This document shows positions 42,763 to 61,022 of a stretch of DNA of 64,000 bases, piece by piece. Position 1 is the stretch's first letter. Every line of letters starts with the position of its first letter. The notes beneath the pieces are model-generated. The model saw nothing but the letters and a program-made list of their open reading frames with translations, did not search any database and was not told where the DNA came from. The translations under genes were made by a program, and so were the position numbers. Origin of the DNA: a virus; IMG/VR virus record IMGVR_UViG_3300017782_000002, positions 55,817 through 119,816 of that record; one strand, written 5' to 3'.

Positions 42763-45700
42763 TGGCAAGATGTTTTAATCAAAATACAAAAGAGTACAAA
42801 GACTTATTAAAAGTACACGGAGACACTTTTACTGTTGATCTTCTTATTAATGATTGGCAGTCTATGACAGGTAGTGAGTCTATTCCTTCTACGTTAGATG
42901 TTGACAATATGTTAAACTCTAGTGATGTTATTATGTCTTTAAGAAGAGACTCATTAGAAAATTCTCTTTTAAGAAATCTTGCTAATAAAAACATTATTAG
43001 TAAATATAATAACAGATGGTATGTTAATGTTACAGTACCTGGTGTAGAAAAAGGATCACCAACTAATCTTAAAAATAATGTAGGAAGATTACAAAACTAT
43101 TTAAGAAATCAAAATTTAGCAAATGCTGTATCACTAAAAAGAACTGCTAATACTTATGAAGTAATAGTAAACAATGACATGTTTACTAAAAGAGATTTAA
43201 TTGCTGATAGAAGTAACCAAGACTCTACAAAAATAATAGAAGTTCTTAATCATCTTAACAATTTATTCCCACAAGTTAAAGTTAGATACATGACTCCTGG
43301 TGAAGCTAAGACTGCTTATGACTCATTACCTAAAGCATCTAAGAGAAAGGTACAGTTTAAAGATATAAAGAGTTTTTATTATAAAGGCAATGCTGTAATA
43401 ATAAAAGGTAGAGTAACAAAAGACACAGCTGTAGAAGAAGTACTGCATCCTTTTGTAGATGCTCTATATAAAAGTAATGGTAAACTTTTTAGCAACATGT
43501 TGTCAGAAGCAAAAAAGACTTTTCCTGAGCTAGCGCAGCAAATAGAATCAGCATACTCTGCTAAGAAAGGGTTTTCTGCAAAAGACAGAGGACAAGAGTT
43601 AGTGACACAAGCTTTATCAAGACATTTTAATAATGAATATGAAACCACTCCTTCAAAACCTTGGTACAAATCAATAAAAGATTTTCTAAAATGGTTTAGT
43701 GATATTATAAAAGATGTCTATAAAAATTACATGGGTGGTAAGTTAAAACTTAATGTAGGGTTTATAAGATCTGACATGACAATGAGTGAAATGGCTAAGA
43801 TGTTAAACACATCAGAGTTTGAATTTAGGCTAGACTTAAATGTCATGGGTGATAGGATGGTGCAATATTCTTTAAGCAAAGGTATGCAAAGTCTTGTAGA
43901 TACAGCTAGAATGCAATCTAACCCTACACAATCAAAAATCATTACTAGGATATTACATCAAGTAGAAGATATAGATGATGTGTTTGATAGTTTAGGTGCA
44001 AGCAGAGTTACCATGGACAGTAAGTCAGGTGAATTTGTTGATGTAGATTCTGGAGATATACTAGAAAGTTTAGAAAATAAAGTACACAGTAGCAACACTG
44101 ATTACTCATATATAGTAGAAGGTATAATGAATCAAGATGATACATTGATAGATCCTTCTAATAACATTAGAGCAATAGCTGCAAGAATAGACGGCATGAA
44201 AGAAGATGGTAGTGTAATATTACCAGGAGTTGTTCTTGCTGATCCAGCAAGCGGTATAGCAACTAAAGCTACTGCGTTAAGAATTAGACCAGATGGTTCT
44301 ATAACTGTTATTTCTATAATGAAAGAAAGTGATGCAAAAGGAAAACAGTCTACATACATAAATGCACAAAGACAAATTTTAGAAAACATAGGGTATGATG
44401 TAACTGATGAATCATTTACTATTTTTACAGACAATAAAGGAGCATACACATATACAAAGATGCACCGTGATTCACACAACGCTGAAGCTGTTGAAGAATT
44501 AGTTCCTAGTGATATAGATACAGAAAACAAAAGTATTGTAGATGAAATATTAGGTGTTAATAGAAAAGTAGAAGGTGATAACCCTACTGAAGACTCTATA
44601 GAAGGAGAGCCTGAATTTTTAGATTCTCCTACATATGATGCTCTTTTTGGTGTATTAAAACCATATAGAAAAGTATTATTAAAAAGAGAGCAAGGTATAA
44701 AAACTGCAAGAAATATAGTTTCTATGGATGGAGGTAGAAAAGAAATTATAGAGCAGGTACAAATGAGCAGGTTGATAGTTGAGCAGATGTACGAAAGACC
44801 TGAAGAAATAAAAAGAATATATGTAGATGTTATTAAGGATGCTTTAAGACAACTAGAAGAAATAAAAGAATACGCTACAAATCCTGAAAACTTTGACAAG
44901 CCTGAGTTTATATCTAAAATATTAAACTGGCAAAAATATATAGAAAACTTTAGAGGTTTGGTAAACTTAACTGAGTCAGTAGGTTTAAACAAATCAGAGT
45001 TAAAATATAAAGACAATTTACAAAAAGCTCTAAATGATATTATTGGTATAAGAAAAGCAGATAGTAGTATTGTTGAAAAAGGTATATTTGATATAGCAAT
45101 TAAAGATTACGTTAGAGAACTTATAAAAAATAACTCTAACAGGAATTTTACACCTTCACAATTAGACGAACTATTAACCACAGCTAGAGATATAAATGCT
45201 GTTGAATATCAAAGTGGTGATATGGCTACATCAAGAGATACTATTCTTGCTCTAATGGATAAGCTATACAAAAGGGACAGGCAAAAAGTTCTTGACAAGG
45301 TAGAAGCAAGAGCTCCAAGAATTAGAGCAGCAGCTTTAAAGTTAGCAAGACTAAATGCTAGCAATAAAATTGACTATAGCTTTATGTTAGAGTTTGATGA
45401 TGATGGTAATTTTACAGGTAGATATGTAACAAAAGTTGGCAAAAACTATACAGACAAACAAAGAGAAGTTAGATCAAAACTATATGATGAAAACGGGTTT
45501 AGAAAGTATATAACTATAGAGAACAAAGAAGAGGCAACAGATGAGCAATTAAATCATAACAAACAGTTAGCTAAAGACAAAGAAGAATACGGTAAGTTTA
45601 TGCGTGCTGAAATTAAAACAGAAACAGGCGTAGAAGATGGAGAGTATCATAAATATTCTGATGACTTTAAAGAGGCTAGATCAAAACATGAAGTTTACAT

Positions 45701-48155
45701 ATATAATGCTTTTAGTGAAATAGGTAGATGGGTAAAACGTAATGATATATCTGACCAGGAGTACAGAGTGTATTTACAAAAGTATTATGATATACTAGAT
45801 GACTATGAAACTGCTGTAAGAGAAGAAGGTGTTCCTACAGGTGCAACAACAATGAGAGAAGGTATACCTGTAATTAAAAAAGAGTTTGTTGAAGTTAGAG
45901 AAATTAGCAGTGAGGGTCTTGATCTAGTTAATGAAAAGTATAGAAAGCTTAACAACCCAACTACAGAATTACAACAAGCACAACTTGAATATTACAACAT
46001 GTTTATTGATGTTTATCAAGATGAGCTTATGGAAAAATTACCTGAGAATGTTAAAATGATAGGTAAAGTTCCAGTAATACAAGGAGAAGTAACTAATAAA
46101 TTAAAAGACAAAAGTAATTTATTAGGTAAAATGTGGGCAGGCATGAAGAAATTTGGTTCAGATCTTATACATCCTAGCACAAAAGTTAAAAAAGTATTTA
46201 CAGATGAAAACGGAGATATAATTCATAATTCTTTACCGTTATTTTTTACAGGTAGTATTGCAGACGAACAAACATATCAGGCTTTAGTTAATGAGCTAGA
46301 TACATTGAAAGATAAAATGAAAGATGCTGCTTCACAAAAGGAAGCAAATGTAATAAATAAAGAAATAAAAGCATTAAGAGGTAAGATAAAAGCAATAGAA
46401 AGAAAGCCTACACCAACAACATTAAGTATGGACATGACAGATTCTTTACTTAAGTTTAGTGCTATGGCTGAGAACTATGAAACAATGGCTCAAGCTGAAG
46501 ATACACATTTAGCTATGCTTAAGGTTTTAGAAAACAGAACATACACTAATTCTAGAGGAGATATAAAAACTCTTGATGAAAATAATGAAGCTAAAGATGC
46601 TGTAGATAATGTAGGACAAGAAGCTAAAATGGTGCAGAGAGCTAAGAAGTGGATGAAAATGGTGTTCTACAATAATGATCAGGATGTTAAAACATTCTGG
46701 GATAAACTTACTAAAGGTCTTATTAGTTATACATCTCTTGCATATGTAGGTACAAACGTTTTTGGTAATATAAACAACTATGCTTTTGGTAGAATATCTA
46801 ATACTATAGAAACGTATGGTCAACGGTTTTACAGCAGAAAAGGTATGGCTAAGTCTGTAATAGGATTTAATAAAAGAATGATACCAGACTTTATGTTACA
46901 TTTAGGAAAGGTTGCGCAAGAAAAAACAGATAAAAGTGTCCAATATAAAGACCAAATACCTTACAGTAAATATGCAGCAATGGTTGCCTTCTTTAGAATG
47001 ATGGACAGTAAAGCAGATCAACGTGAATCAGGAGATGTAGGAGATATGTGGAACAAGTACACAAGTTGGGCATACGCATTACAAGATGCTGGAGAATTTA
47101 ACGTACAAAGTAAGATTGGTATGGCAATACTACACTCTACTACTGCTGTAAATCCTGCTACAAATGCAACAATGAGTTTATATGATGCTCTAAGTTTTGA
47201 TAGAACTACTGGAGATGTAAAACTAAAAGACGGGTTTACAAAAATAAAAATGTACAACTCAGAAAAGTTAATGGATTGGAATGCGGATACTAAGTATGAC
47301 ATAAGAAACTATATAAGAGAGACAAATAAGATCATACATGGTAACTACGCATATGAAGACAGAATGGTAATGCAGTCACACTCTTTAGGACAACTAGCTG
47401 CACAATTCCATAAGTGGGTAGCACCGTCTATAAAGGCTAGATTTAGACCAGAGTACTTTGATGAGAACTTAGGATGGATGGAAGGTAGATACTTGACGTT
47501 TTGGAATTTTTTAGGTTACGCTTACAAGAATATAGGTAATGCAATGACAATGGGGGCAGACTATAAAGAATTCCATGGAGAGAAGGGAGAACAAAAACTA
47601 CAGAATGTACACAGGGTGATGGGAGAGATAGCTGTTATTATGAGTACATACTTAATAAAACAAATGTTGATGTCATTATGGGGGATGAGTCCTGATGATA
47701 GTGATGAAGGTAAGAGATTAAAGAAAATGAAACAAAGAAGAGAAGCTTTAAGAAAAATGCAAGGCTTAGAACCTGAAGTTTCTGACTTAACAAAAAGACT
47801 TAGGAATGTTTTAGTGTACCAAATGGACAGACTACATGATGAAACAGTTTTGTGGGTTCCTATTCCAGGAGCAGGTGGTCTACAACAGATGGGACACTTT
47901 ATCCAAAATCCTATTGCATCATCAAGAACTCTTGGTGAAATGGGTGAAGCTATAGAGATGACTGCACGTACAGGATTAACCTGGGGCTTTAGTAGTGAAG
48001 AAGATTTTTATTCAAACAAAGATGTTGTATACCAAAGAGGTATAAGCGCTGGTAAGATGAAACTAGGTAAAGAGTGGGGTGATGCTGCTCCTTTCCTATA
48101 TACCGCTAACAAGTGGAGGAACTTCATACAAATGAATGACTTCTACATAAAATAG
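42762..48155 (+). CDS. Large virion polyvalent/ejection protein with a degenerate zincin motif
   Basis: Start is more likely 42762 (TAATG overlap with the vRNAP stop) than 42750; AVEEVLHPFV and QELVTQA; long helical C-terminal region. Confidence 0.65.
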   Translation: MARCFNQNTKEYKDLLKVHGDTFTVDLLINDWQSMTGSESIPSTLDVDNMLNSSDVIMSLRRDSLENSLLRNLANKNIISKYNNRWYVNVTVPGVEKGSPTNLKNNVGRLQNYLRNQNLANAVSLKRTANTYEVIVNNDMFTKRDLIADRSNQDSTKIIEVLNHLNNLFPQVKVRYMTPGEAKTAYDSLPKASKRKVQFKDIKSFYYKGNAVIIKGRVTKDTAVEEVLHPFVDALYKSNGKLFSNMLSEAKKTFPELAQQIESAYSAKKGFSAKDRGQELVTQALSRHFNNEYETTPSKPWYKSIKDFLKWFSDIIKDVYKNYMGGKLKLNVGFIRSDMTMSEMAKMLNTSEFEFRLDLNVMGDRMVQYSLSKGMQSLVDTARMQSNPTQSKIITRILHQVEDIDDVFDSLGASRVTMDSKSGEFVDVDSGDILESLENKVHSSNTDYSYIVEGIMNQDDTLIDPSNNIRAIAARIDGMKEDGSVILPGVVLADPASGIATKATALRIRPDGSITVISIMKESDAKGKQSTYINAQRQILENIGYDVTDESFTIFTDNKGAYTYTKMHRDSHNAEAVEELVPSDIDTENKSIVDEILGVNRKVEGDNPTEDSIEGEPEFLDSPTYDALFGVLKPYRKVLLKREQGIKTARNIVSMDGGRKEIIEQVQMSRLIVEQMYERPEEIKRIYVDVIKDALRQLEEIKEYATNPENFDKPEFISKILNWQKYIENFRGLVNLTESVGLNKSELKYKDNLQKALNDIIGIRKADSSIVEKGIFDIAIKDYVRELIKNNSNRNFTPSQLDELLTTARDINAVEYQSGDMATSRDTILALMDKLYKRDRQKVLDKVEARAPRIRAAALKLARLNASNKIDYSFMLEFDDDGNFTGRYVTKVGKNYTDKQREVRSKLYDENGFRKYITIENKEEATDEQLNHNKQLAKDKEEYGKFMRAEIKTETGVEDGEYHKYSDDFKEARSKHEVYIYNAFSEIGRWVKRNDISDQEYRVYLQKYYDILDDYETAVREEGVPTGATTMREGIPVIKKEFVEVREISSEGLDLVNEKYRKLNNPTTELQQAQLEYYNMFIDVYQDELMEKLPENVKMIGKVPVIQGEVTNKLKDKSNLLGKMWAGMKKFGSDLIHPSTKVKKVFTDENGDIIHNSLPLFFTGSIADEQTYQALVNELDTLKDKMKDAASQKEANVINKEIKALRGKIKAIERKPTPTTLSMDMTDSLLKFSAMAENYETMAQAEDTHLAMLKVLENRTYTNSRGDIKTLDENNEAKDAVDNVGQEAKMVQRAKKWMKMVFYNNDQDVKTFWDKLTKGLISYTSLAYVGTNVFGNINNYAFGRISNTIETYGQRFYSRKGMAKSVIGFNKRMIPDFMLHLGKVAQEKTDKSVQYKDQIPYSKYAAMVAFFRMMDSKADQRESGDVGDMWNKYTSWAYALQDAGEFNVQSKIGMAILHSTTAVNPATNATMSLYDALSFDRTTGDVKLKDGFTKIKMYNSEKLMDWNADTKYDIRNYIRETNKIIHGNYAYEDRMVMQSHSLGQLAAQFHKWVAPSIKARFRPEYFDENLGWMEGRYLTFWNFLGYAYKNIGNAMTMGADYKEFHGEKGEQKLQNVHRVMGEIAVIMSTYLIKQMLMSLWGMSPDDSDEGKRLKKMKQRREALRKMQGLEPEVSDLTKRLRNVLVYQMDRLHDETVLWVPIPGAGGLQQMGHFIQNPIASSRTLGEMGEAIEMTARTGLTWGFSSEEDFYSNKDVVYQRGISAGKMKLGKEWGDAAPFLYTANKWRNFIQMNDFYIK

Positions 48156-48682: not shown

Positions 48683-50542
48683 CTATGTAATTTCACAGCT
48701 ACCACCAGCACAAGCTAACTCACCTTTTAAATCAGTATTATCATCAAGTTCTACAACCTTTGACAAGTCAACAGATGTAAGAGCTTTTAGTAATTCTTGA
48801 TACTTATCTTTTGAAATATCTTCAAATGGAGCTTGTGTATATGTACCACCGTTGTATGGTAATACAGCTAGACCATTATAACAATCTCTATTATCCCACA
48901 TCCATTTACCTGCTTTATCCCATTCATCTTCTTTCAAAGATACTGTTGCAGATACGTTGTGACTATTAGATCCTGTTCTGTGTCCATTACTTACCCAACC
49001 ATCTGAAATTAATTTGATACGTTTTAATAAATCAAATGCTGATTCAGTTCTTACTATAGAACCTTTTGGTGCTGCTTGTGGTATTGAAATAACAGCAGTA
49101 TCATGCGGTCTAAAGTATTCATCTTCTACTAATTCCGGGTGATTGTTTACCAAATATGTATAGATAGATTCATTTTTACCTACACGTAGTCTACGGATAT
49201 AAAAATCATTATGCCATGCATGAATACCAGAAGAAGTACCAAGAGTTAAAGATGTTGTACCAGCAGGTTTAACACATGTAGTTCTTGCTGCTTTATTTAC
49301 ACCAATCTTTTTTGCTATTCTTGCGTTCTCTCTTTTAACTAGAGATGCTGCTTCACCCATGTCTAATTTTAAAACTTTTCCACTAGCTATACCAGTCATA
49401 GATACACCAATAAGAGCATCCTTTTCTGTAGTTTCTTGCCAAATTTGTCTTAAGTAATGGAAATTAGTATAGCCAGCTTGCAATGTACCTATGAATGCTG
49501 CACCCTTTACTCTTTTGTTTAACTCTTCTTGTGTGCTAACATCTGAAACATTTACTTCACAAAGATTACAAAACTGATATGGACGTAAAGCAATTTCACA
49601 ACATGGGTTAGTACCCCAGTCTTTATCATTGTTAAAATAAATACCAGGCTCACCAGATCCAGAAAGTTCAATACGCTTCCATACATCTGTAAAAAAGTCT
49701 TTAGTAATTTTATGTCTCATTAATACAGCAGAGTTATTAGCTCTACCTCTTTGTGGATTTTTTTCCCACCAGTCACCTGACTTGCAAGAAATCATTTCAT
49801 CATCATGAGCACTAAAAAGACTAATAAGAGCAGCACGTCTAATACCTCCAGCTAATACTGCATCAGCAATATAACAAACTATATCATGAACTTCTAAAGT
49901 ACTTAATTGATCTCCATCTTCTTTATTACTTAGTATACCTTCTACTTTAAGTAAGCATTCTTTAAGTGGTTGAGGACCAGGAGCTTTACCACCAGATGTT
50001 ACGAGCCTAGCACCCTTTGGTCTAATATCTGAAAAATCAAATATGATCTTAGAAGATCTACCATTTAAATATGATTTCATTAATAATTTAACTGCGTCAG
50101 CCCAACCTTCTATAGAGTCACCAATTAAATATCTTTTAGTTCTTTTTGTATAAGGTTTGTTTATAGGAGGCAGTTGAGCAACATGATGATTTTGAACAGA
50201 ATAACCAACGCCTGTTCCACCTAACAACAAAAACATACACTCACTAAATGAATCAACATGATCTATAGGCATATAAGCACAATTGTATATTCTATTAGGA
50301 GCAATTTCAATTGGTTTACCACCAAATTGCATTGATCTCATTGATGGTAATATCTGTTTATCATAAACCATCTTATATACTTCTTCTATTTCATCTTTAA
50401 TGTGCGGGTATGACTTTAAGTGCATGTCCTTGTTTCTTGTAACTAATTCTTCCCATGTTTCTCTTCTGTTCAATTCTGGAAGATATTTAGCATATTTCAT
50501 ATGGACAGTAATATCACTTAGAATCTTGTTGTTTAATTCCAT
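48683..50542 (-). CDS. nrdJ: Class II (adenosylcobalamin-dependent) ribonucleotide reductase
   Basis: YNCAY, GGTGVG, TNPCCEI, FCNLCE, VKPAGT and C-terminal ACAGGSCEI. The true start is likely MELNNK at 50542, after an A-rich RBS, rather than 50653. Confidence 0.92.
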   Translation of the reverse strand: MELNNKILSDITVHMKYAKYLPELNRRETWEELVTRNKDMHLKSYPHIKDEIEEVYKMVYDKQILPSMRSMQFGGKPIEIAPNRIYNCAYMPIDHVDSFSECMFLLLGGTGVGYSVQNHHVAQLPPINKPYTKRTKRYLIGDSIEGWADAVKLLMKSYLNGRSSKIIFDFSDIRPKGARLVTSGGKAPGPQPLKECLLKVEGILSNKEDGDQLSTLEVHDIVCYIADAVLAGGIRRAALISLFSAHDDEMISCKSGDWWEKNPQRGRANNSAVLMRHKITKDFFTDVWKRIELSGSGEPGIYFNNDKDWGTNPCCEIALRPYQFCNLCEVNVSDVSTQEELNKRVKGAAFIGTLQAGYTNFHYLRQIWQETTEKDALIGVSMTGIASGKVLKLDMGEAASLVKRENARIAKKIGVNKAARTTCVKPAGTTSLTLGTSSGIHAWHNDFYIRRLRVGKNESIYTYLVNNHPELVEDEYFRPHDTAVISIPQAAPKGSIVRTESAFDLLKRIKLISDGWVSNGHRTGSNSHNVSATVSLKEDEWDKAGKWMWDNRDCYNGLAVLPYNGGTYTQAPFEDISKDKYQELLKALTSVDLSKVVELDDNTDLKGELACAGGSCEIT

Positions 50543-50615
50543 TCTTTTAATTTTTAGTAAGGTTAATAATTGTGTAGTAAAACAAGATACTAAATTATCT
50601 TGAATTTGGCACGTG

Positions 50616-50648
50616 CAAATATACAAAAGTGAAAACAAAAAATCCAAA
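50616..50648 (-). promoter_or_regulatory. Canonical Bacteroidota promoter TTTG-N21-TATATTTG driving nrdJ
   Basis: On the minus strand: TTTG (50648-50645), 21-nt spacer, TATATTTG (50623-50616), about 74 nt upstream of the nrdJ ATG. Confidence 0.7.
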
Positions 50649-50823
50649 TTCAAACATGTAAGCTTGTCTTTCTTTTTTTTCTTTTAAAAAGAACCCATTA
50701 AACAATGTGTTTTCTAAATTAACCACGCTATAACAAAAGCCAATATTAATATTATTCCTTGAAATAATATGCAATTCAAAATTATGTTTTTTCATATGAT
50801 ATTGTTTTTTGTTAATGTAATTT

Positions 50824-51174: not shown

Positions 51175-54100
51175 ATGTCTAGAAATTCAACCCATATAAA
51201 TTGTAATCAAGTTGCAGGAACAGTTAACCAAGGTATTTGGAAAAACGATTGTGATCCTTGTGCAACATCACCTTTTGCTATTAACAATATTACTGTTTGG
51301 CATAGGTTTAACTTTGGTGTAAATAATCACGCTACTCCTGCTGACATATTAGCTAACGTTGCTAATGCTGCTACTATATCACAATGGGATGATCAAATAG
51401 GCTCAAATGATGCTGAACAACAAACATTAGCTGATGCACCAACATGGTATTCTACAGATACTTCTCATAAAGTTACAGCAGGTAATCATTTTGATTTATC
51501 TTCTGCTATCACTTATGGTGCAGCTGCAGACTTTACAGTTTTACTTGCTTATGTGCCGTTAATAAATACAACTCCTTCAGGTCAAAAATTATGGGATCAA
51601 GCTGGTGGACAAAACTATCTTAAGTGGGATAGCCCTACTCAACTTACATTTAGATTAGCAGGACTTAATCATGTAGTAACAGGACCGGCTATACAATTAA
51701 CTGACTACACAAACTTTGTAGTTAGAAGATGTACAAACATGTGTCAAATATTTATAGCAGGTGTTCCATGGGGAGCTGCTTTCTTAGCAGCAGGTGCTTT
51801 AACAATAGAAAGATTAGGACCAGACGCTAATGGTTACATTGCTGCGCACATGCAATTTGACAGATGTTTAACTGATAAAGAAATATGGTGTCTTGATTGT
51901 TATAACAGTAATCAAAGTGATGAAGAAAATCCTGTAACATGTAATATAGGTGATTTTAAACTAGCTTGTAATGGTGATACAAACGGATCATTAACAGCAA
52001 CTATGTTTAATGCAACAGGAACTGTAACTTACTTATGGTCTCCTGGTGGACAAACAACACAAACAATAACTGGTCAAGGAGCAGGTACTTATACTTGTAC
52101 TCTTACTGACTCAGCATCTCCAGCAAATGTTTGTACAGCAAGCGGAGTTGTTACTGAACCAGTAGCTTTAGCATGTACAGTAACTGGAGTTAATCCTCAG
52201 TATATACTTAATAGTGCTGGCCAACAAATTTTAACAACAGGTAGTGTTTCAGCAGTAGCTACTGGAGGATATGGTGCAGGATGTACATTAACTTATGCAT
52301 GGACTAGAAACGGTAGTGCTATATCAAATGCAAATGGTGGAATGGCAGCTCCAGGTAATGTTGCATCATTTAATGTAACAGAAAATGGAGTTTATGCAGT
52401 AACTATAACAGATTGTTATGGTTGTACTACAACGTGTAATGTTACTATAACAATTCCTAACCCACCTAGTACTTTAGATATAGAATGTTGTTACGAAGCT
52501 GCAGGCTGTACAGATGAAGATATTAAATGGGCAATTATGTTAGACTCTACTGCAACTTTCCCTTGTACTATAACTGCATCTGGTTCTACATCAGGAACGG
52601 CTTCTTGGTCTCCTGTAACAATTTCTTCTTTACCTTCATCAACTTCAATAGACGGTTCTCAGTATGATATGTTCTCTTGTGAATCTAGCGGCCCTTGGGC
52701 TTATGGAAGTAATGCACAAAAGCTTTCTCCAGGTGAAACTTGGACGCTTACTGTAACTGACAGTTCTTCTCCAGCAAGGAGTCAAAGCTGTTCAGTTAAT
52801 ATAGTTAATCCTCCTGCTCTTACTTTAACATCATCAGTTACACAACCAACAATGTGTGAACATGGTGGATCTGTTTCTGACGGTGATATTACTTTTAATG
52901 GATCAGGTGGTAACCCAAATTGTAATCCGTGGACTTACTCAATAACTGGACCAAACAGTTTTTCAACTACTAATAACTATGTATTAAATGCAGCTCCAGG
53001 TACATACACTTTAACAGTGACAGATGCTTGTGGTTGTTCAGCAACACAAAATGTAACGCTGACTTGTCCAATAACAGCAGACATGACTGTAACTAATACA
53101 GATGTAAGCTGTAGACCAGTTCAAAGTGAATTAAACCCTAACCCACAAATACCTTGTGATGCAACGGCTACATTTACTGCAAACCCAACTTCAGTAACTG
53201 GATATACATTTGAAGCAATCCTTATGGATCCATCAGGTGTAGTTATATATAACTCAGGACAACTAGCAACTTTTAATGCTGCAACGGTTACTGGTTTATG
53301 TATTGGTAATTATACTTGGACTTATTTTGCTACTAACACAACTTCTGGTTTAACATATCAGGTAGACAGTGGATCGTTTACAGTTGCAGCTCCTCCCGCA
53401 TTAAGCGCAACAACAGTTGCTAACTTTATTCACTGCTTTGGAGGATCAACAGGAACAATTGATTTAACACCAAGCGGAGGAACACCTGGTTATACTTATT
53501 TATGGACAGCAGGAGCAACTGGAACAGTGCCTGCAGGTCAATCTACAAATCAAGACTTAACAGGTTTAGTATACGGAATATATTTCTGTACTATTACAGA
53601 TGCTAACGGATGTACTTTAACTATATCACAAAGTGTAAATGGATCAACTTGTCCTTTAACAATATATGGTATAGTACCAGAAATACCATGTCCTGGTCAA
53701 ACTACTAGTATTAAACAATTGTATATAACTTGTGGAACAGGTCCTTATACTTACGCATGGGTTGCTTCTAACGGTGGATCTTTAGGATCAAACTCATCAA
53801 CAGCAGATCAGTTAGTTGGCATAGGGGCAGGTACCTATACAGTTACTGTTACTGATGATAACGGTTGTACTGGAACTCAATCATGGACAGTAGTAGCACC
53901 TTCAGCAATATCTGGATCTATTACAGGAACAAACGTTGGCTGTAAAGGAGAAAGATCTGGAGCAGCACAATTTGACCAGTGGGCAGATCAACAATTTAGT
54001 GGAGCTAGTTACTTATGGACAACAGATGCAGGTTTTACAACACCTAACCCGTACGGACCATCTACCAACTCTTACATTAGTTCAGTACCAGCAGGAACAT

Positions 54101-55113
54101 ACTATTTACAAGTAACATTATCAAACGGATGTATTTGGACAGGTAGTATTGTAATAACAGAGCCTGGTACAGGAATGTCACTTAGTGCTGTTATAACAGA
54201 TGAGAATCAGTGTACTGATTGTTGTGGAGCAATAGACTTAACAGTTACAGGAGGGTCAGCACCTTACACTTTCCAATGGGATGATCCAGCTGCATCAACA
54301 ACCGAGGATTTATCGTGTGTTTCTGCAGGTGTGTATACAGTAATTGTTACAGATAATGCAGGATGTACTGCAACTGCTACATATACTGTAGGCGTAACCT
54401 ACTATCAGTTAACAATAGGTGTTGCATACGATAATACTACAGGTCAATTTACCACAACAGTTGGTGGAGGTAATCCTCCATACTACTACCAGTGGACTAA
54501 AAATGGAAATCCTTTCTCTTACGCACAAGATCCTTTTAGTGCAGGAAATGGTTACTACTGTGTAACTGTAACAGATTCAGTAGGATGTACTGGAACTACT
54601 TGTTACGATTTATCTAGAGAACCAAGAGGAGAAACAAGTTTTAACTGTCAAACTTACTCACCAACATTAGGTACAACATCATACGGATGTGTATCTGTAG
54701 CAGGAACAGGAGGTACTTACAGCACGCTTGCAGCTTGTCAAGCAGCATGTGAAGTTGAAAGACCTACTAGATATAGATGTCAAGAAGGAACTGGTTGTGT
54801 ATCACACCCTGGTGGAACATATACATCATTATCTGCATGTAATGCTGTCTGCGGTGCTTCTGGACAAAACGATATTAACTATGTTTGTGAAATCTTATGT
54901 AATGATAATGCATCAGGAGAAAGATATAAAACAACTGACGGAAGAGTTGATGTTGACGAAAGAGGTAATCCAGTTAGAGAAGACGCTGGAACTCCAGGTG
55001 GTAAATGTAGAGAAGAAAATTCTGAAACAGACTCTTCTTTAACTAAATACACAAGTTTTGAGCTTTGTAAAGCAGCTTGTCCTTGGTGTAAGGAAGGTAC
55101 TTATAAATACTAA
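51175..55113 (+). CDS. SprB-repeat adhesin-like/fibre protein with an N-terminal LamG-like domain
   Basis: Repeats of [ST]GG[TS]xPYT[YF]xW...GxYx(V/C)T(V/I)TDxxGC at ~51950-54600; C-terminal C-x-GC-GGxYxSLxAC repeats; no signal peptide or T9SS CTD visible. Confidence 0.75.
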   Translation: MSRNSTHINCNQVAGTVNQGIWKNDCDPCATSPFAINNITVWHRFNFGVNNHATPADILANVANAATISQWDDQIGSNDAEQQTLADAPTWYSTDTSHKVTAGNHFDLSSAITYGAAADFTVLLAYVPLINTTPSGQKLWDQAGGQNYLKWDSPTQLTFRLAGLNHVVTGPAIQLTDYTNFVVRRCTNMCQIFIAGVPWGAAFLAAGALTIERLGPDANGYIAAHMQFDRCLTDKEIWCLDCYNSNQSDEENPVTCNIGDFKLACNGDTNGSLTATMFNATGTVTYLWSPGGQTTQTITGQGAGTYTCTLTDSASPANVCTASGVVTEPVALACTVTGVNPQYILNSAGQQILTTGSVSAVATGGYGAGCTLTYAWTRNGSAISNANGGMAAPGNVASFNVTENGVYAVTITDCYGCTTTCNVTITIPNPPSTLDIECCYEAAGCTDEDIKWAIMLDSTATFPCTITASGSTSGTASWSPVTISSLPSSTSIDGSQYDMFSCESSGPWAYGSNAQKLSPGETWTLTVTDSSSPARSQSCSVNIVNPPALTLTSSVTQPTMCEHGGSVSDGDITFNGSGGNPNCNPWTYSITGPNSFSTTNNYVLNAAPGTYTLTVTDACGCSATQNVTLTCPITADMTVTNTDVSCRPVQSELNPNPQIPCDATATFTANPTSVTGYTFEAILMDPSGVVIYNSGQLATFNAATVTGLCIGNYTWTYFATNTTSGLTYQVDSGSFTVAAPPALSATTVANFIHCFGGSTGTIDLTPSGGTPGYTYLWTAGATGTVPAGQSTNQDLTGLVYGIYFCTITDANGCTLTISQSVNGSTCPLTIYGIVPEIPCPGQTTSIKQLYITCGTGPYTYAWVASNGGSLGSNSSTADQLVGIGAGTYTVTVTDDNGCTGTQSWTVVAPSAISGSITGTNVGCKGERSGAAQFDQWADQQFSGASYLWTTDAGFTTPNPYGPSTNSYISSVPAGTYYLQVTLSNGCIWTGSIVITEPGTGMSLSAVITDENQCTDCCGAIDLTVTGGSAPYTFQWDDPAASTTEDLSCVSAGVYTVIVTDNAGCTATATYTVGVTYYQLTIGVAYDNTTGQFTTTVGGGNPPYYYQWTKNGNPFSYAQDPFSAGNGYYCVTVTDSVGCTGTTCYDLSREPRGETSFNCQTYSPTLGTTSYGCVSVAGTGGTYSTLAACQAACEVERPTRYRCQEGTGCVSHPGGTYTSLSACNAVCGASGQNDINYVCEILCNDNASGERYKTTDGRVDVDERGNPVREDAGTPGGKCREENSETDSSLTKYTSFELCKAACPWCKEGTYKY

Positions 55114-55976: not shown

Positions 55977-56450
55977 ATGAAAAAGATTAGTGAACACATT
56001 AGTTACAAAGAAGCAATAACAAGTGCTACAGCTTTGAGAAGAGGTTTAGATAATACTCCTGGTCCTGAGCAATTAAAATGCATGCAAGAAATTGGTAGAG
56101 ATCTTTTTGAACCTCTTAGAGAGTGGGTTGAAGGTCCTATAAAAATAACTAGTATGTTTAGGGGAGAGCCTGTAAATACAGCTATAGGAGGTTCTAAAAA
56201 TTCACAGCATATGAAAGGTCAAGCTTTAGATTTGGATGATACATTTGGGTATAAAACAAATGCAGAGATGTATCACTATATAAAAGATAATTTAATATTT
56301 GATCAACTAATATGGGAGTTTGGAGATGATAATAATCCTAATTGGATACATGTAAGTTATGTAACTCATAGACCTAATAGAAAGAAGTGTACAGTTGCAC
56401 TAAAGAAAAACGGAAAGACAGTATATGAACATAGACCTATAGAGAAATAA
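55977..56450 (+). CDS. Peptidase M15-family endolysin
   Basis: ITSMFRGEPVNTAIGGSKNSQHMKGQALDL and WIHVS match the M15 Zn-binding SxH-x6-D and HxS motifs. Confidence 0.88.
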   Translation: MKKISEHISYKEAITSATALRRGLDNTPGPEQLKCMQEIGRDLFEPLREWVEGPIKITSMFRGEPVNTAIGGSKNSQHMKGQALDLDDTFGYKTNAEMYHYIKDNLIFDQLIWEFGDDNNPNWIHVSYVTHRPNRKKCTVALKKNGKTVYEHRPIEK

Positions 56451-56734
56451 TGGCAAAGGAATTAAACGAAGACACTAGCTTTAAAATAAGTCTTAAAACA
56501 CTAGCAGGAATAGCGGTTTTAATTTTTACTATAGTGGGTATGTGGTTTGCACTTCAAGCTGATATAGAAGAAGCAAAGCAATTACCAGAACCACCACCAG
56601 CTCCAGTATCAAGAATGGAATTTGATATGAAAGATAAAAACATAAGATTGTCAATTGAAAACACAGAAAAAGCTGTTGATGAAATGAAAGTTGACCTAAG
56701 AAGAATGGAAGATAAAATAGATAAATTAAGATAA
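56450..56734 (+). CDS. Single-TM coiled-coil protein (holin/spanin-like)
   Basis: TM segment LAGIAVLIFTIVGMWFAL, Pro-rich linker, then a coiled coil; TAATG-coupled to the endolysin. Confidence 0.5.
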   Translation: MAKELNEDTSFKISLKTLAGIAVLIFTIVGMWFALQADIEEAKQLPEPPPAPVSRMEFDMKDKNIRLSIENTEKAVDEMKVDLRRMEDKIDKLR

Positions 56735-56756
56735 TAACTAATAAAGACTAAAAATT

Positions 56757-56828
56757 ATGACTAAATGTGCATGCGGTAAAACAAAAGCTGAGGACGGTTC
56801 ATGTGACGGTTCACACAAAGAATGCTAG
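56757..56828 (+). CDS. 23-aa CDGSH-type iron-sulfur motif peptide (not in the ORF track)
   Basis: Translates to MTKCACGKTKAEDGSCDGSHKEC*; preceded by CTAAAAATT; fills the gap between neighbouring genes. Confidence 0.7.
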   Translation: MTKCACGKTKAEDGSCDGSHKEC

Positions 56829-56830
56829 AA

Positions 56831-56968
56831 ATGGCAAAAAAAAGAAAACTAAATAGTAAGAACCCTAAGTATATGGATCAGTCTCAGTTGAATGAGAAAC
56901 CCATAAAGAAAAAAGTATTGTATACTGAAATTAAAGGGGTTAAAGTTTATGGAATTTGGTATGAATAA
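56831..56968 (+). CDS. 45-aa basic hypothetical protein (not in the ORF track)
   Basis: MAKKRKLNSKNPKYMDQSQLNEKPIKKKVLYTEIKGVKVYGIWYE*; its stop overlaps the next start. Confidence 0.55.
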   Translation: MAKKRKLNSKNPKYMDQSQLNEKPIKKKVLYTEIKGVKVYGIWYE

Positions 56969-57320
56969 AATTAGTATAGCTTGGAAAATATTTATTGGAT
57001 ATATTCTGATATTAATATTTATGGTTGTTAGCTCAGAAGCTACAGGTCAAATTGTAGTTACACATTTTAATGCTGAGTGGAATGATCCAAACAAAGTTTC
57101 TTACATTGGTAAGCTAACAGATTGTGAGATAGTATATGTTGATATAGCTAAATCACCTAAACTACAAACTAAACATGAAATAGTAGTTGTACCTACTGTT
57201 ATTGTATTTAAAGACGGTGAAGAGATGAAAAGATTTCAAGCTGATATATCATTTAGTATGAAAGCAACTAGAAAAGATATGCAAGAAATAATTGATGAAT
57301 TAATAATGAGTGATTTTTAA
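56961..57320 (+). CDS. Exported thioredoxin-fold protein lacking CxxC
   Basis: Signal-like N-terminus ending SEATG-Q; HFNAEWN where thioredoxin has xFxAxWCxxC; cis-Pro-type VVPTVIVFKDGEE. Start 56961 preferred. Confidence 0.7.
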   Translation: MNKISIAWKIFIGYILILIFMVVSSEATGQIVVTHFNAEWNDPNKVSYIGKLTDCEIVYVDIAKSPKLQTKHEIVVVPTVIVFKDGEEMKRFQADISFSMKATRKDMQEIIDELIMSDF

Positions 57321-57668: not shown

Positions 57669-60600
57669 ATGAGAAAACTATTATTTATATTATTAGCAAC
57701 TATAATATCTTGTGTAGCACCAAAAAAATGTTGCTCACAAAATTCTTGGGTAAACTATCAAGTACAATATGATTTTTATGCACCATCAGAATCTAATTTC
57801 TTTATGGTATCTAATGCTAATGGTGATACAGCAATGTTTCATCAACCTACTACTCCTTATGAAACATTAGACACTACAATATTTATAGATTCAGGTTCTT
57901 ACACAGTTACATTAACAGACAGTTACGGAGATGGTTGGATTTCACAACAACCTGCTTTCTTTAGAATGCGTAACTTGTGTCAAGGTATGATAATTAATTG
58001 GGACCCAGTGTTAGGTTCTTTTTTTCTTAGAGATACTACTGTAAACATATTACCTTGTGCCCCACCTGTTTATGGTTGTATGGATCCGCTAGCATTAAAT
58101 TTTGATTCAAATGCTACAATTGATGATGGCTCTTGTATATATCCTCCATGTAATGGTGTTATTAATGACACTGCATTTCAAATGTGTTGGGGTAGTCAAG
58201 CAGCCATTTCTTTTGCATGGGAAACAACTAGCAATAACAATTGTGATGTAGTTAAATTATATTACGGTAGTGAAAGCGGTTATAGTATTACTGTCCCTGG
58301 ACTTTGGCCATCAGGTGGCTGGAGAGATTGGGCTACTGCTGCTGGCCCTGGTCAAATGCCTCCTAACTGGACTGAAGAACATTATTTAGTATTAGAATTT
58401 GCTGACGGTTCTTTAGCAGATACAATGTTTTTTACACCGTATGCTTGTATACCTGGGTGTACAGATCCAACACAACCATCATATAATCCTTGGGCTACTA
58501 TAGACGATGGGTCTTGTTCAGGTACTATATGTGATACAGCAACAGAATATCAAATAACAATGGAGCTTACACTTGACAATTGGCCAGGTGAAACATCATG
58601 GTTAATGAATAGTGGTGGTGTAATAGACAGTGCTATTATAGGTACATATAACTTTAATGATATTGGTCAAACTTTTACATACAATTTTTGTATAGATCAA
58701 GGTGCTGGATTTGAATTAATACTTAATGATTCATACGGAGACGGTTTAGCCGGTTCTACTTCTGGAGGTTCTTTAGATGGTAATGTAGTTATATATGATT
58801 GTAATGGAGATACTATATGGATGCTACCTGATCCTGATTTTGGTTATACTGCTTATTCATCTCCTCTTAATGGCGTACCGTGTAATATAACACCTCCTGT
58901 CTATGGTTGTACAGATGATGATTATGTAGAGTATAATTCTTTAGCAACCGTTGATGACGGTTCATGTTCAACATTACATATTTATGGTTGTACTGACCCA
59001 GCTGCATTTAACTACGACCCTAATGCAACAATACTAGATTTAGTTCCTGATTGTAATTATAGATTAATCTTAGAAGATGACGCTGGAGATGGTTGGGGTA
59101 ATTCTTATTTAGGTATAACACAAGGCCCTATGAGTTGGACTTATACAATAGGTCCTGGTATATATAGTGATACCTTTAATATAATATTAGATTCTGATGT
59201 TCCTGTAAATGTATATTACTTTGAAATAGGAGGACCACAAACTCCACCTGAAGAAGTTCAATTCCAAACATGGCATAATTCTTTTAAATTAATAAATGTT
59301 TATGATGATGTACTATTAGAAGAAGGAACAAATCCTTTTGCTAACAACGGACAAGGAGCACTGCAAGCTTTTGATAGTCCTTTCTGGAACAAATATACAG
59401 CAGTACCAAATTGTGGTGATTACTGCATACCAACAATTTTAGGATGTTTAGACGCAACAGCATTTAATTATATACAACCTGTGGGTGATTCATTAATAGA
59501 TGTAAATACTAGTGATGGATCATGTATGCCTGTACTACTAGGATGCACAAACCCAATTGCATTTAACTATGACTCTTTAGCAAACACAGACGATGGATCA
59601 TGTGTAGCTGAAGTAATAGGATGTATGGATACTGCAGCATTTAATTTTAACCCAGCTGCAAACACAAATGATCCAGCATCATGTATTCCTGTAATATATG
59701 GTTGTATGGATGATACACAATTTAATTACAACCCAGCTGCTAATACAGATGACGGATCTTGTATACCTGTAATCTTTGGATGTACTGACGCATTAGCTTT
59801 TAATTATGACAGCTTGGCTAATACAAACAATAATTCATGTATTCCATTTATATATGGCTGCACCAATCCTGCAGCTCTAAACTATGATCCATTAGCAAAC
59901 ACTGATGATTCAACATGTATAGGGATCATATACGGTTGTACTGATATTACAATGCACAACTATAATCCTTTAGCTAATACTGACAACGGATCATGTATAC
60001 CGTTTATATATGGGTGTACAGATTCAACACAGTTTAATTATGACCCTACAGCAAACACTAACAACGGTACTTGTGTACCATTTATATACGGCTGTACTGA
60101 TCCAAGCGCATTAAATTATGACCCCTTTGCTAATACAGATGATTTTAGCTGTGTTTTACCTATCTATGGGTGTATGGACAGTACAGCCTTTAATTACGAT
60201 CCACTAGCTAATGTGGATAATGGATCTTGTCTGCCAATAATATATGGTTGTACAAATCCTATAGCTTTAAATTACTGTGATACTTGTAACACAGATGACT
60301 TTAGCTGCATACTTCCTATATATGGATGTACAGACAGCACTATGTATAACTATAATCCTCTAGCCAATGTTGACAATAATTCTTGTATACCTTTCATTTA
60401 TGGGTGCACTGACCCTACTATGCTTAACTACAACCCATCCGCTAATACGGAAGACTTTAGTTGTATCTCTTTCATTTACGGTTGTATGGATAGTACTGCT
60501 ATTAACTATGATCCGTTGGCTAATACTGAAAATGGTTCTTGTATTGAAGCAATTGTCGGATGCATGGATCCAAATGCGTGGAACTTTAACCCAGAAGCAA

Positions 60601-61022
60601 ATGTAATATTAGGACATGATTCATTAGGTTGTTTATATGCAGCTAACTGTACTGCAACAGAACCTGGAGAACCATACTTTTTAAATGATGGTTGTTATGC
60701 TTGGGTTATAGATGTAGATGATTATTGTTGTAACAATGAGTGGGATGACATATGTCAAGCTACATACAATTATTGTTCTGATGGTTGGACAGGACCACAA
60801 CCTCCTGCTAGAATTGCTGGAGAAGATATATTTTTATATCCAAATCCAACTAAAGGTCTGTTAAATATTAGTAAAGAAGCAGACATTGAAGTGTATAATC
60901 CTTTAGGTCAAATGATAATAAAGAGAGAAAATATCACTATATTAGATATGAGCACCTTAACTAAAGGTATTTACACCATTAAAATAAATAAATTAATAAC
61001 AAAACAAATAATTAAAAATTAG
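57669..61022 (+). CDS. Signal-peptide protein with ~19 GCxD Cys repeats and a C-terminal T9SS type A sorting domain
   Basis: N-terminus MRKLLFILLATIISC; repeats GC[TM]DxxAxN[YF]xPxANxDDGSC; C-terminus YPNPTKG...YNPLGQ...LDMSTLTKGIYTIKI...KQIIKN. Confidence 0.85.
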   Translation: MRKLLFILLATIISCVAPKKCCSQNSWVNYQVQYDFYAPSESNFFMVSNANGDTAMFHQPTTPYETLDTTIFIDSGSYTVTLTDSYGDGWISQQPAFFRMRNLCQGMIINWDPVLGSFFLRDTTVNILPCAPPVYGCMDPLALNFDSNATIDDGSCIYPPCNGVINDTAFQMCWGSQAAISFAWETTSNNNCDVVKLYYGSESGYSITVPGLWPSGGWRDWATAAGPGQMPPNWTEEHYLVLEFADGSLADTMFFTPYACIPGCTDPTQPSYNPWATIDDGSCSGTICDTATEYQITMELTLDNWPGETSWLMNSGGVIDSAIIGTYNFNDIGQTFTYNFCIDQGAGFELILNDSYGDGLAGSTSGGSLDGNVVIYDCNGDTIWMLPDPDFGYTAYSSPLNGVPCNITPPVYGCTDDDYVEYNSLATVDDGSCSTLHIYGCTDPAAFNYDPNATILDLVPDCNYRLILEDDAGDGWGNSYLGITQGPMSWTYTIGPGIYSDTFNIILDSDVPVNVYYFEIGGPQTPPEEVQFQTWHNSFKLINVYDDVLLEEGTNPFANNGQGALQAFDSPFWNKYTAVPNCGDYCIPTILGCLDATAFNYIQPVGDSLIDVNTSDGSCMPVLLGCTNPIAFNYDSLANTDDGSCVAEVIGCMDTAAFNFNPAANTNDPASCIPVIYGCMDDTQFNYNPAANTDDGSCIPVIFGCTDALAFNYDSLANTNNNSCIPFIYGCTNPAALNYDPLANTDDSTCIGIIYGCTDITMHNYNPLANTDNGSCIPFIYGCTDSTQFNYDPTANTNNGTCVPFIYGCTDPSALNYDPFANTDDFSCVLPIYGCMDSTAFNYDPLANVDNGSCLPIIYGCTNPIALNYCDTCNTDDFSCILPIYGCTDSTMYNYNPLANVDNNSCIPFIYGCTDPTMLNYNPSANTEDFSCISFIYGCMDSTAINYDPLANTENGSCIEAIVGCMDPNAWNFNPEANVILGHDSLGCLYAANCTATEPGEPYFLNDGCYAWVIDVDDYCCNNEWDDICQATYNYCSDGWTGPQPPARIAGEDIFLYPNPTKGLLNISKEADIEVYNPLGQMIIKRENITILDMSTLTKGIYTIKINKLITKQIIKN

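What the first reader, a model, noticed from the sequence alone, without database searches (positions are those of the whole stretch)
56757..56828. Minimal 23-aa CDGSH [2Fe-2S]-motif micropeptide missed by gene calling
MTKCACGKTKAEDGSCDGSHKEC is essentially just a CDGSH motif (C-x-C-x2-T-x6-CDGSH; the canonical spacer is x5). It has a good A-rich RBS and abuts both neighbours. Established: CDGSH domains bind redox-active, labile 2Fe-2S clusters with 3Cys-1His ligation. A stand-alone peptide this small in a phage lysis/envelope cluster is unusual and could act in iron or Fe-S scavenging or redox sensing (inference).
Basis: partly seen in the sequence, partly recalled or inferred. Interest (0 to 1): 0.7.

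Follow-up and report, generated by a model that had tools for sequence, protein, structure and literature searches.

The report
Motif-only CDGSH micropeptide in phage
The 23-codon gene is real and belongs to a large, mostly unannotated family of 22-35-residue peptides that keep little more than the metal-binding loop of CDGSH iron-sulfur proteins; marine Flavobacteriia carry it beside a quinone-binding lipocalin gene, and their phages carry it inside their lysis gene clusters.

Summary
The ORF at 56757-56828 (+) encodes a 23-residue peptide with the motif C-x-C-G-x-T-x6-CDGSH.

It is a gene. In the nearest relative the 17-codon core differs by 5 synonymous and 0 non-synonymous changes. An in-frame 3-nt indel lies near the C-terminal end.

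It belongs to a large family. Two capped DNA scans each returned 120 contigs, viral and cellular. A profile search found 294 clusters (50% identity).

The family always has a loop one residue longer than the canonical CDGSH motif. The three Cys, the His and the non-ligand T, D, G and S are conserved. The beta-sandwich, N-strand and lid-proline of true CDGSH domains are absent, and Pfam's threshold is not reached. It is therefore a new variant, not a family member.

In Flavobacteriia the gene directly follows yceI (46 loci), often precedes an FMN reductase gene, and is sometimes fused to YceI through a membrane helix. In phages it is an accessory gene: 43 of 76 viral loci have a holin or endolysin gene within 1 kb.

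Metal binding by three Cys and one His is likely. Whether the metal is [2Fe-2S] or Zn/Fe is open. No earlier finding of this scan covers this family.

The parts
56757..56828 (+). Mini-CDGSH micropeptide gene (23 codons plus TAG)
   Evidence: The ORF is. Orthologues occur in related phage contigs with 5 synonymous and 0 non-synonymous core changes and an in-frame indel. The wider family is shown.
56766..56816 (+). Motif core C4...H20 (C-x-C-G-x-T-x6-C-D-G-S-H), the presumed three-Cys, one-His metal site
   Evidence: The DNA pattern matches once here and 0.00 times in shuffles. In 135 family members C, C, G, G, C, D and H are invariant and T, G and S are at least 90% conserved.
56735..56756 (+). 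A-rich 22-nt leader without a Shine-Dalgarno sequence
   Evidence: Read from the sequence and conserved in L003 and L043. Upstream regions of other family members are also A-rich. That Bacteroidota mostly lack SD sequences is from my own knowledge.
55977..56450 (+). Context: Peptidase_M15_3 endolysin
   Evidence: Pfam PF08291, E = 8.7e-14. Homologues hit phrog_894, endolysin.
56450..56734 (+). Context: 94-aa protein with one membrane helix and a coiled coil, a candidate holin or spanin-like lysis protein
   Evidence: Hydrophobic stretch at residues 11-29 in the homologue. No family hit. At least 584 homologues in viral contigs. The lysis role is inferred.
56831..56968 (+). Context: 45-aa basic ORF (MAKKRKLNSK...) inserted together with the mini-ORF
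   Evidence: Present with the mini-ORF in L003/L182 and L043/L230, and without it in L050. The start at 56831 is conserved. Most relatives lack both ORFs.
56949..57320 (+). Context: exported thioredoxin-fold protein without a CxxC motif
   Evidence: Pfam Thioredoxin, E = 1.3e-4, below threshold. The sequence has AEWNDPN where WCGPC would be. In most relatives it directly follows the 94-aa gene.

Best explanation
Shown: the ORF is a real gene for a 23-residue peptide. It belongs to a discrete family of 'motif-only' CDGSH-like micro-proteins with the motif C-x-C-G-x-[TS]-x5-G-x-C-D-G-[ST]-H. The loop is always one residue longer than the canonical CDGSH loop.

Shown: the family is sporadic in marine Flavobacteriia, Paenibacillus, Opitutales and Actinobacteria. 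There it is either a stand-alone gene of 25-30 codons or a small module fused to other proteins.

Shown: in this Bacteroidota phage lineage it is an accessory gene, present in few relatives and at three different positions.

Inferred: the peptide folds around a metal site made of its three Cys and one His. The cofactor is either a solvent-exposed, labile [2Fe-2S] cluster as in CDGSH proteins, or a single Zn or Fe ion.

Inferred: in cells it works on the cytoplasmic face of the inner membrane as the small redox or metal partner of the quinone-binding lipocalin YceI, often together with an NAD(P)H-dependent FMN reductase. The proposed route is NAD(P)H to flavin to peptide to quinone.

Inferred: the phage copy was taken from the host. 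It is expressed with the lysis genes and acts on the same membrane redox system late in infection.
For: Coding:
- The window and L182 differ in the 17-codon core by 5 synonymous and 0 non-synonymous changes. A 3-nt in-frame indel lies near the C-terminal end.
- 65 different stand-alone peptides, mostly 22-28 aa, were found among the viral hits. Each has an ATG 2-13 codons before the first Cys and a stop 1-5 codons after the His.

Family:
- Positions that the search pattern did not impose are conserved: T/S, G and N/D.
- In the relaxed scan the free segment is DG[ST] in 102 of 120 matches.
- A profile search found 294 clusters at E <= 1e-3. The listed hits have a median length of 46 aa.
- The spacer is 9 residues in 140 of 149 motifs. 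Canonical tandem CISDs have 8,8 in 108 of 120 proteins.

Link to CDGSH:
- PDB hits are 3tbn (E = 1.7e-4) for the peptide, and 3tbm and 3tbn as the top two hits for the family profile.
- Pfam PF09360 matches positions 32-48 in longer members.
- IMG names the members of 29 aa or more 'CDGSH-type Zn-finger protein'.

Cellular partner:
- A yceI gene ends 15-40 nt upstream on the same strand in 46 loci, within several different wider contexts.
- An FMN_red gene follows 12-18 nt downstream in 13 loci.
- MarR or HxlR regulator genes are nearby.
- Fusions of motif, membrane helix and YceI occur in L251, L279, L305 and L340.

Literature:
- YceI lipocalins bind ubiquinone-8 and are paired with a redox protein, cytochrome b561 (PMC9113575).
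- mitoNEET passes electrons from FMNH2 to ubiquinone (PMC9490426).

Accessory and host-derived:
- 12 of 111 neighbour-selected loci (several from the same contigs) carry the ORF, at three positions.
- The host is a member of the Bacteroidota, judged from Por_Secre_tail and SprB repeats in window proteins.
- The phage G-K-T-K...G-N signature is shared with the YceI-fusion motif.
Against: - No metal or cofactor has been shown for any member.
- Lin et al. 2011 state that the CDGSH iron-sulfur module needs the beta-sandwich with N-strand and lid-proline. All are absent here.
- The Pfam and NCBIfam thresholds are not reached.
- The AlphaFold model has only moderate confidence (pLDDT 72) and no structural match.
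- YceI is periplasmic, whereas the peptide has no export signal. Any direct interaction must therefore run through the membrane or a quinone.
- Paenibacillus and Opitutales copies are not next to yceI.
- The phage genome has no yceI.
- The phage copies lie beside lysis genes rather than redox genes, so the phage role may differ from the cellular one.
- Only 5 of 121 sampled genomes of the Polaribacter family carry the gene, so most potential hosts lack the cellular system.
Confidence: 0.6

Rival explanations
1. The peptide is a mononuclear Zn(II) or Fe(II) knuckle, not an Fe-S protein. It would be a purely structural three-Cys, one-His finger, like the SecA metal-binding domain or retroviral zinc knuckles. 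It would dock onto a partner such as a membrane protein, the ribosome or nucleic acid.
For: - 22-30 residues suffice for a zinc knuckle, but no natural [2Fe-2S] protein this small is known to me (own knowledge).
- The shielding beta-sandwich and lid-proline are absent.
- The peptides are rich in Lys and Arg.
- The module is fused to unrelated proteins, as promiscuous zinc fingers are: ribosomal protein S16, PSP1, an XkdF-like protease and WYL_2.
- The third PDB hit of the profile, MTH1184 (1gh9), matches only through a C-x-C-G segment; I take it from memory to be a zinc-ribbon protein.
- IMG labels the family as a Zn finger.
Against: - The non-ligand residues T/S, D, G and S/T, which shape the CDGSH cluster cradle, are kept as strictly as the ligands. 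A plain zinc knuckle would not need them.
- The CDGSH domain itself was first annotated as a zinc finger and later shown to bind [2Fe-2S] (PMC5859297).
- An adjacent FMN reductase and a quinone-binding YceI fit a redox role.
Confidence: 0.35
2. In phages the peptide is a component or regulator of lysis. It would be a small cytoplasmic partner of the holin or of the membrane/coiled-coil protein, setting the time of lysis according to the redox or metal state of the cell.
For: - 43 of 76 viral loci with a stand-alone copy have a holin (phrog_3427) or an M15 endolysin (phrog_894) within 1 kb. There are 51 different pairs of immediate neighbours.
- The ORF directly follows a small membrane plus coiled-coil protein both in the window (94 aa) and in 31 loci of another phage group (c2: two membrane helices plus coiled coil).
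Against: - Most close relatives of the window phage lyse without it.
- Within this lineage the ORF also sits after the thioredoxin-like gene or after the nuclease gene.
- Regions around lysis genes are common sites for accessory genes (own knowledge).
- Many of the 76 loci are related phages, so the count overstates independent events.
- The cellular homologues have no link to lysis.
Confidence: 0.15
3. The ORF is not a functional gene. It would be a chance ORF, a remnant of a larger CDGSH gene, or a precursor peptide that is modified after translation (RiPP).
For: - It is very short and was not called by gene finders.
- It is absent from most relatives.
Against: - Only synonymous changes occur in the core, and the indel is in frame.
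- Start and stop are conserved across more than 100 different peptides in viruses and several bacterial phyla.
- No modifying enzyme recurs next to it.
- There is no Rfam match.
- The pattern is expected 0.00 times by chance.
Confidence: 0.03

Closest known systems
CDGSH iron-sulfur domains (CISD; Pfam PF09360): mitoNEET/CISD1, bacterial type 4 RsCISD (PDB 3TBM), type 6 MmCISD (PDB 3TBN)
   Same: - Same order of ligands: C-x-C ... C-x3-H.
- Same non-ligand residues: G after the second Cys, S/T two residues later, and D-G-[ST] between the third Cys and the His.
- The predicted short helix starts at S-H, which to my recollection of CISD structures is also where their helix starts.
- These are the best PDB sequence hits.
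   Different: - The loop is one residue longer, 9 against 8 residues between the second and third Cys.
- The conserved Pro is replaced by Gly within an [ND]-x-x-G turn, and there is no hydrophobic residue before the first Cys.
- There is no N-strand, no P motif or lid-proline, and no beta-sandwich for dimerisation.
- The whole protein is 22-35 aa, against 60 aa or more for the CISD proteins compared here.
- It scores below the Pfam cut-off.
SecA-type metal-binding domain (SEC-C motif, C-x-C-x8-C-[CH])
   Same: It is a module of about 20 residues that starts C-x-C-G, is rich in Lys, binds metal through three Cys and one His or Cys, and is appended to many unrelated proteins. This comparison is from my own knowledge.
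   Different: The last two ligands are adjacent in SEC-C but are C-x3-H here. There was no Pfam SEC-C hit. The D-G-S signature is absent from SEC-C.
YceI lipocalin with its cytochrome b561 partner (BcnA-LcoA of Burkholderia; yceJ-yceI of E. coli)
   Same: A yceI gene is coupled in an operon to a small redox-type partner gene. YceI binds ubiquinone-8 and protects the envelope against lipid peroxidation (PMC9113575).
   Different: Here the partner is a micropeptide of 25-30 aa, often with an FMN reductase, instead of a haem membrane protein. It lies downstream of yceI, not upstream.
Phage auxiliary (host-derived) genes and morons near lysis cassettes
   Same: The gene is variably present among close relatives, has homologues in the host clade, and is inserted between conserved late genes.
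   Different: It is far smaller than the auxiliary genes I know of. No metabolic pathway can be assigned to it yet.

Membership tests
CDGSH iron-sulfur domain (CISD, Pfam PF09360 zf-CDGSH) | The 17-residue motif Phi-C-x-C-x-x-(S/T)-x-x-x-P-Phi-C-D-G-(S/T/A)-H (Lin et al. 2011) | tested here: not met
   C-x-C, T and C-D-G-S-H are present. However, the spacer is one residue longer, the Pro is absent (A-E-D-G-S), and the residue before the first Cys is Lys. The family as a whole has the 9-residue spacer in 140 of 149 motifs.
CDGSH iron-sulfur domain (CISD, Pfam PF09360 zf-CDGSH) | Score above the Pfam gathering threshold (29.5 bits) | tested here: not met
   The window peptide gives no hit at E <= 10. 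Longer relatives score 11-16 bits, and only on model positions 29-48.
CDGSH iron-sulfur domain (CISD, Pfam PF09360 zf-CDGSH) | Beta-sandwich dimerisation module with N-strand and P motif (lid-proline) | tested here: not met
   Only 3 residues precede the first Cys and 3 follow the His. The model of a 30-aa member shows one beta-bridge and one short helix. The requirement is stated in PMC3174974.
CDGSH iron-sulfur domain (CISD, Pfam PF09360 zf-CDGSH) | A three-Cys, one-His ligand set in the order C-x-C ... C-x3-H | tested here: met
   C4, C6, C16 and H20. These are invariant in 135 family members.
CDGSH iron-sulfur domain (CISD, Pfam PF09360 zf-CDGSH) | Binds a redox-active [2Fe-2S] cluster | not testable with these tools
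   This needs reconstitution and spectroscopy.
Motif-only CDGSH-like micropeptides (unnamed family defined in this report) | Motif C-x-C-G-x-[TS]-x5-G-x-C-D-G-[ST]-H with a 9-residue spacer | tested here: met
   The window peptide aligns over the whole core. It has Ala where most members have Asn or Asp.
Motif-only CDGSH-like micropeptides (unnamed family defined in this report) | Stand-alone ORF of about 22-35 codons, with its own start shortly before the first Cys and its stop shortly after the His | tested here: met
   23 codons, with M1 three residues before C4 and the stop three residues after H20.
SEC-C / SecA metal-binding domain (Pfam PF02810) | C-x-C-x8-C-[CH] with adjacent last ligands, and a Pfam match | tested here: not met
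   The last ligands are C-x3-H. No SEC-C hit appeared in the Pfam scans.
Phage accessory (moron or auxiliary) gene | Present or absent among close relatives, with homologues in the host clade | tested here: met
   12 of 111 neighbour-selected loci carry it, at three positions. Homologues occur in Flavobacteriia.

The most novel reading that the evidence does not exclude
These 22-30-residue peptides would be the smallest natural iron-sulfur proteins: a bare CDGSH loop holding an exposed, labile [2Fe-2S] cluster. Cells would use it as a diffusible one-electron shuttle between a flavin reductase and the quinone carried by YceI. Phages would have captured it into their lysis cassettes so that lysis timing or late-infection envelope redox state responds to iron, oxygen or oxidative stress.
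Probability: 0.15. Interest if true: 0.85.

Novelty: new variant of a known kind. Interest (0 to 1): 0.64.

Why it matters
The family may reduce a well-studied metal-binding domain to its bare loop of about 17 residues, in a free-standing natural peptide.

If it binds [2Fe-2S], it would be smaller than any natural iron-sulfur protein I know of. It would then be a natural counterpart to designed Fe-S peptides and to ideas about early peptide-metal catalysts.

It also gives YceI lipocalins in Flavobacteriia a candidate partner. YceI function is only partly understood.

The family adds a recurrent, unannotated gene to phage lysis cassettes. Most members are under about 29 codons and are invisible to gene callers.

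The peptide can be made by chemical synthesis, so the central question (which metal it binds) can be tested directly.

Tried and rejected
- Pfam and NCBIfam on the peptide gave no hit.
- tblastn of the 23-aa peptide and of a 43-aa relative against 50,697 cultured-phage records gave no match. blastn of the region hit only the SNase nuclease gene.
- My first IMG/VR pattern had a 27-base gap instead of 25, so it was out of frame and the scan was wasted.
- The search for homologous proteins refuses queries under 40 aa.
- The AlphaFold2 model of a 30-aa member had pLDDT 72. Foldseek against the PDB and VIA-align against 48,161 chains both returned nothing, as expected for so small a model.
- Rfam found nothing in 56300-57300. 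Promoter and terminator scans were no better than shuffles.
- The idea that the peptide is just a truncated canonical CISD is rejected. Canonical tandem CISDs have 8,8 spacers in 108 of 120 proteins, while this family has 9 in 140 of 149 motifs.
- The RiPP precursor idea is rejected, because no recurrent modifying enzyme lies nearby.
- The phage genome has no second copy and no yceI.
- Literature searches on CDGSH with phage, viral, YceI, COG3369 or small protein found no description of such peptides. The two CDGSH surveys do not mention viruses or short forms.
- Earlier findings of this scan held nothing on this family.

Full report
**1. The observation**

The window is the last 64 kb of a 119.8-kb IMG/VR virus record. 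On the + strand, ATG 56757 to TAG 56828 encodes MTKCACGKTKAEDGSCDGSHKEC.

An in-frame stop lies four codons upstream, so this ATG is the only possible start. The leader is A-rich. The ORF begins 22 nt after the preceding gene and ends 2 nt before a conserved ATG at 56831.

A degenerate DNA pattern for C-x-C-G-x8-CDGSH occurs once in the window and 0.00 times in shuffles. It has 9 residues between the second and third Cys, where the canonical CDGSH motif has 8.

**2. It is a gene**

Loci fetched through the neighbouring proteins were chosen without regard to the motif. Of these 111 loci (several come from the same contigs), 12 contain the ORF.

The nearest relative (L003/L182) has 80% identity in the neighbouring 94-aa protein. 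Against it, the 17-codon core differs at 5 synonymous and 0 non-synonymous sites. The C-terminal end differs by an in-frame 3-nt indel.

In most other relatives the 94-aa gene is followed directly by the thioredoxin-like gene. The mini-ORF and a 45-aa basic ORF therefore form an insertion.

Within this phage lineage the mini-ORF occupies three positions: after the 94-aa gene, after the thioredoxin-like gene, and after the nuclease gene. It is an accessory gene.

**3. It belongs to a large family**

Among these hits, 65 different peptides of at most 60 aa stand alone, mostly 22-28 aa. Each has a start 2-13 codons before the first Cys and a stop 1-5 codons after the His.
- The same scan of one genome per prokaryotic species also stopped at 120 contigs. 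The hits are mostly marine Flavobacteriia (Polaribacter, Flavobacterium and many uncultured lineages), plus Paenibacillus, Opitutales (two motifs in tandem) and Actinobacteria.
- Positions that the pattern did not impose are conserved. The consensus is PKCxCGNTxNPxGxCDGSHxNK. In 135 peptides C, C, G, G, C, D and H are invariant and T, G and S are at least 90% conserved.
- I then left the last segment free (C-xxx-H) in a second scan. Of the 120 matches in hand, xxx was DGS in 87, DGT in 15, D[AST]S in 13, NGT in 3 and other in 2. The two scans overlap, so this sample is only partly independent of the first.
- A profile search of 1.84 billion cluster representatives found 294 clusters at E <= 1e-3. 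The listed hits have a median length of 46 aa.
- The exact window peptide and the Paenibacillus 25-mers are absent from about 15 billion predicted proteins. Members of 29-30 aa are present, named 'hypothetical protein' or, by IMG, 'CDGSH-type Zn-finger protein'.
- The family is patchy within its host clade. Only 5 of 121 sampled genomes of the Polaribacter family carry it.

**4. Relation to CDGSH domains**

The window peptide hits the bacterial CDGSH protein 3tbn at E = 1.7e-4, with a one-residue gap in the loop. The family profile's top two PDB hits are the CDGSH proteins 3tbm and 3tbn, at E = 0.08 and 0.42.

Longer relatives match the last 17-20 positions of Pfam zf-CDGSH at 11-16 bits, against a cut-off of 29.5 bits. 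The window peptide gives nothing at E <= 10, and NCBIfam gives nothing.

Lin et al. 2011 define the motif as Phi-C-x-C-x-x-(S/T)-x-x-x-P-Phi-C-D-G-(S/T/A)-H. They state that the iron-sulfur module requires a beta-sandwich with an N-strand and a lid-proline (PMC3174974). None of these is present here.

The 9-residue spacer is the rule in this family, in 140 of 149 motifs. In canonical tandem CDGSH proteins it is a rare exception: 108 of 120 have 8,8 and only 2 have 9,8.

The peptide therefore shares the cluster-binding loop, including the non-ligand T, D, G and S. It fails three defining features of the domain. I classify it as a new variant, not as a member.

AlphaFold2 on a 30-aa member with the 135-sequence alignment gave pLDDT 72. 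The model shows one beta-bridge and a short helix starting at S-H. No structural match was found.

**5. Cellular context**

- In 46 cellular loci a YceI-like gene (PF04264) ends 15-40 nt upstream on the same strand, although the wider neighbourhoods differ.
- In 13 loci an NADPH-dependent FMN reductase gene starts 12-18 nt downstream.
- MarR-type or HxlR-type regulator genes are often adjacent.
- In four Flavobacteriales genomes the motif is fused, through one membrane helix, to the N-terminus of a YceI domain (L251, L279, L305, L340). This places the motif on the cytoplasmic side of the membrane (inference from the Lys-rich N-terminus).
- Other fusions are to the C-terminal extension of ribosomal protein S16, to a PSP1-domain protein, to an XkdF-like phage protease and to WYL_2.

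From the literature, YceI lipocalins bind ubiquinone-8. They are usually paired with a cytochrome b561, and the pair protects the envelope from lipid peroxyl radicals (PMC9113575). mitoNEET transfers electrons from FMNH2, made by a flavin reductase, to ubiquinone (PMC9490426).

The gene order yceI, mini-ORF, FMN reductase fits the same chemistry. This is an inference, not a demonstration.

**6. Phage context**

The window phage infects a member of the Bacteroidota, judged from a T9SS sorting domain and SprB repeats in its proteins. Its peptide sits directly after an M15 endolysin gene and a 94-aa membrane/coiled-coil protein gene.

Of 76 viral loci with a stand-alone copy, 43 have a holin (phrog_3427) or an M15 endolysin (phrog_894) within 1 kb. 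There are 51 different pairs of immediate neighbours. In 31 loci of another phage group the ORF directly follows a protein with two membrane helices and a coiled coil.

Many of these phages are related, so the number of independent events is smaller than 43. Lysis regions are also common sites for accessory genes (my own knowledge).

The phage G-K-T-K...G-N signature matches the motif of the YceI fusions more closely than that of the free flavobacterial peptides. This is consistent with capture from a host.

**7. Verdict**

| Statement | My estimate |
|---|---|
| It is a real gene and a member of this family | about 0.95 |
| It binds a metal through three Cys and one His | about 0.85 |
| The cofactor is [2Fe-2S] | about 0.45 |
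| The cofactor is a single Zn or Fe ion | about 0.4 |
| The YceI/flavin/quinone partnership holds in cells | about 0.5 |
| The phage copy has the same role | about 0.35 |
| The phage copy has a dedicated role in lysis timing | about 0.15 |

I found no paper that describes these peptides.

Noticed in passing
L010:3264-3362, L015:3607-3702, L017:3607-3702 and L008:3658-3735 (approximate; + strand, just after the thioredoxin-like gene): Relatives that lack the mini-CDGSH ORF carry a different Cys-rich micro-ORF of 25-32 aa at the corresponding place, for example MKKFLCKLLCIVSFKTICAKWCDTKSCCKKEN. The zone appears to be a hotspot for small Cys-rich accessory ORFs.
   Followed up: no
window 56949-57320 (+): An exported thioredoxin-fold protein has AEWNDPN in place of the WCGPC active site, so it is probably redox-inactive. 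It is conserved next to the 94-aa gene in most relatives.
   Followed up: partly
window 56831-56968 (+): A 45-aa, very basic ORF (MAKKRKLNSKNPKY...VKVYGIWYE) is inserted together with the mini-ORF in the three closest relatives. It occurs alone in L050. Its end overlaps the start of the thioredoxin-like gene.
   Followed up: partly
window 57669-61022 (+) and 51175-55113 (+): Two phage-encoded giant proteins carry host-type surface features. The 1117-aa protein has a T9SS C-terminal sorting domain (Por_Secre_tail). The 1312-aa protein has SprB repeats. The phage may therefore use the host type IX secretion system.
   Followed up: no
window 28099-42762 (+), 6390-13940 (+), 42750-48155 (+): Very long ORFs of 4887, 2516 and 1801 aa lie in the structural region. 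I did not examine them.
   Followed up: no
L302:957-1511 (+) and L341:7221-7820 (+): In two Verrucomicrobiota genomes (L302 is titled Coraliomargaritaceae; L341's title was not shown), ribosomal protein S16 carries a long acidic C-terminal extension that contains one mini-CDGSH motif.
   Followed up: partly
L140:1914-3677 (+) and L170:2386-4170 (-); similar C-terminal ends in L160, L224 and L229: Phage proteins of about 590 aa (L140, L170) combine DUF3721, an XkdF-like serine protease domain (Peptidase_S78_2) and a C-terminal mini-CDGSH motif...CRKNGxCACGRTENPNGLCDGSHLK. Proteins of 380-520 aa in L160, L224 and L229 end with the same motif but were not scanned for domains.
   Followed up: partly
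L132:506-634 (+), L149:4079-4207 (-), L165:430-555 (+), L177:12688-12813 (-): Two viral sub-families add a conserved tail to the motif...HLFDMNNLPFPYL and ...NVCDDDRLDQNEDVPFADKF. The second is acidic and ends in a D-V-P-F-like motif that resembles the C-terminal tip of SSB proteins (own knowledge), which suggests a docking peptide.
   Followed up: no
window 48683-50653 (-): A class II (B12-dependent) ribonucleotide reductase-like gene lies on the opposite strand within the otherwise + strand late region.
   Followed up: no
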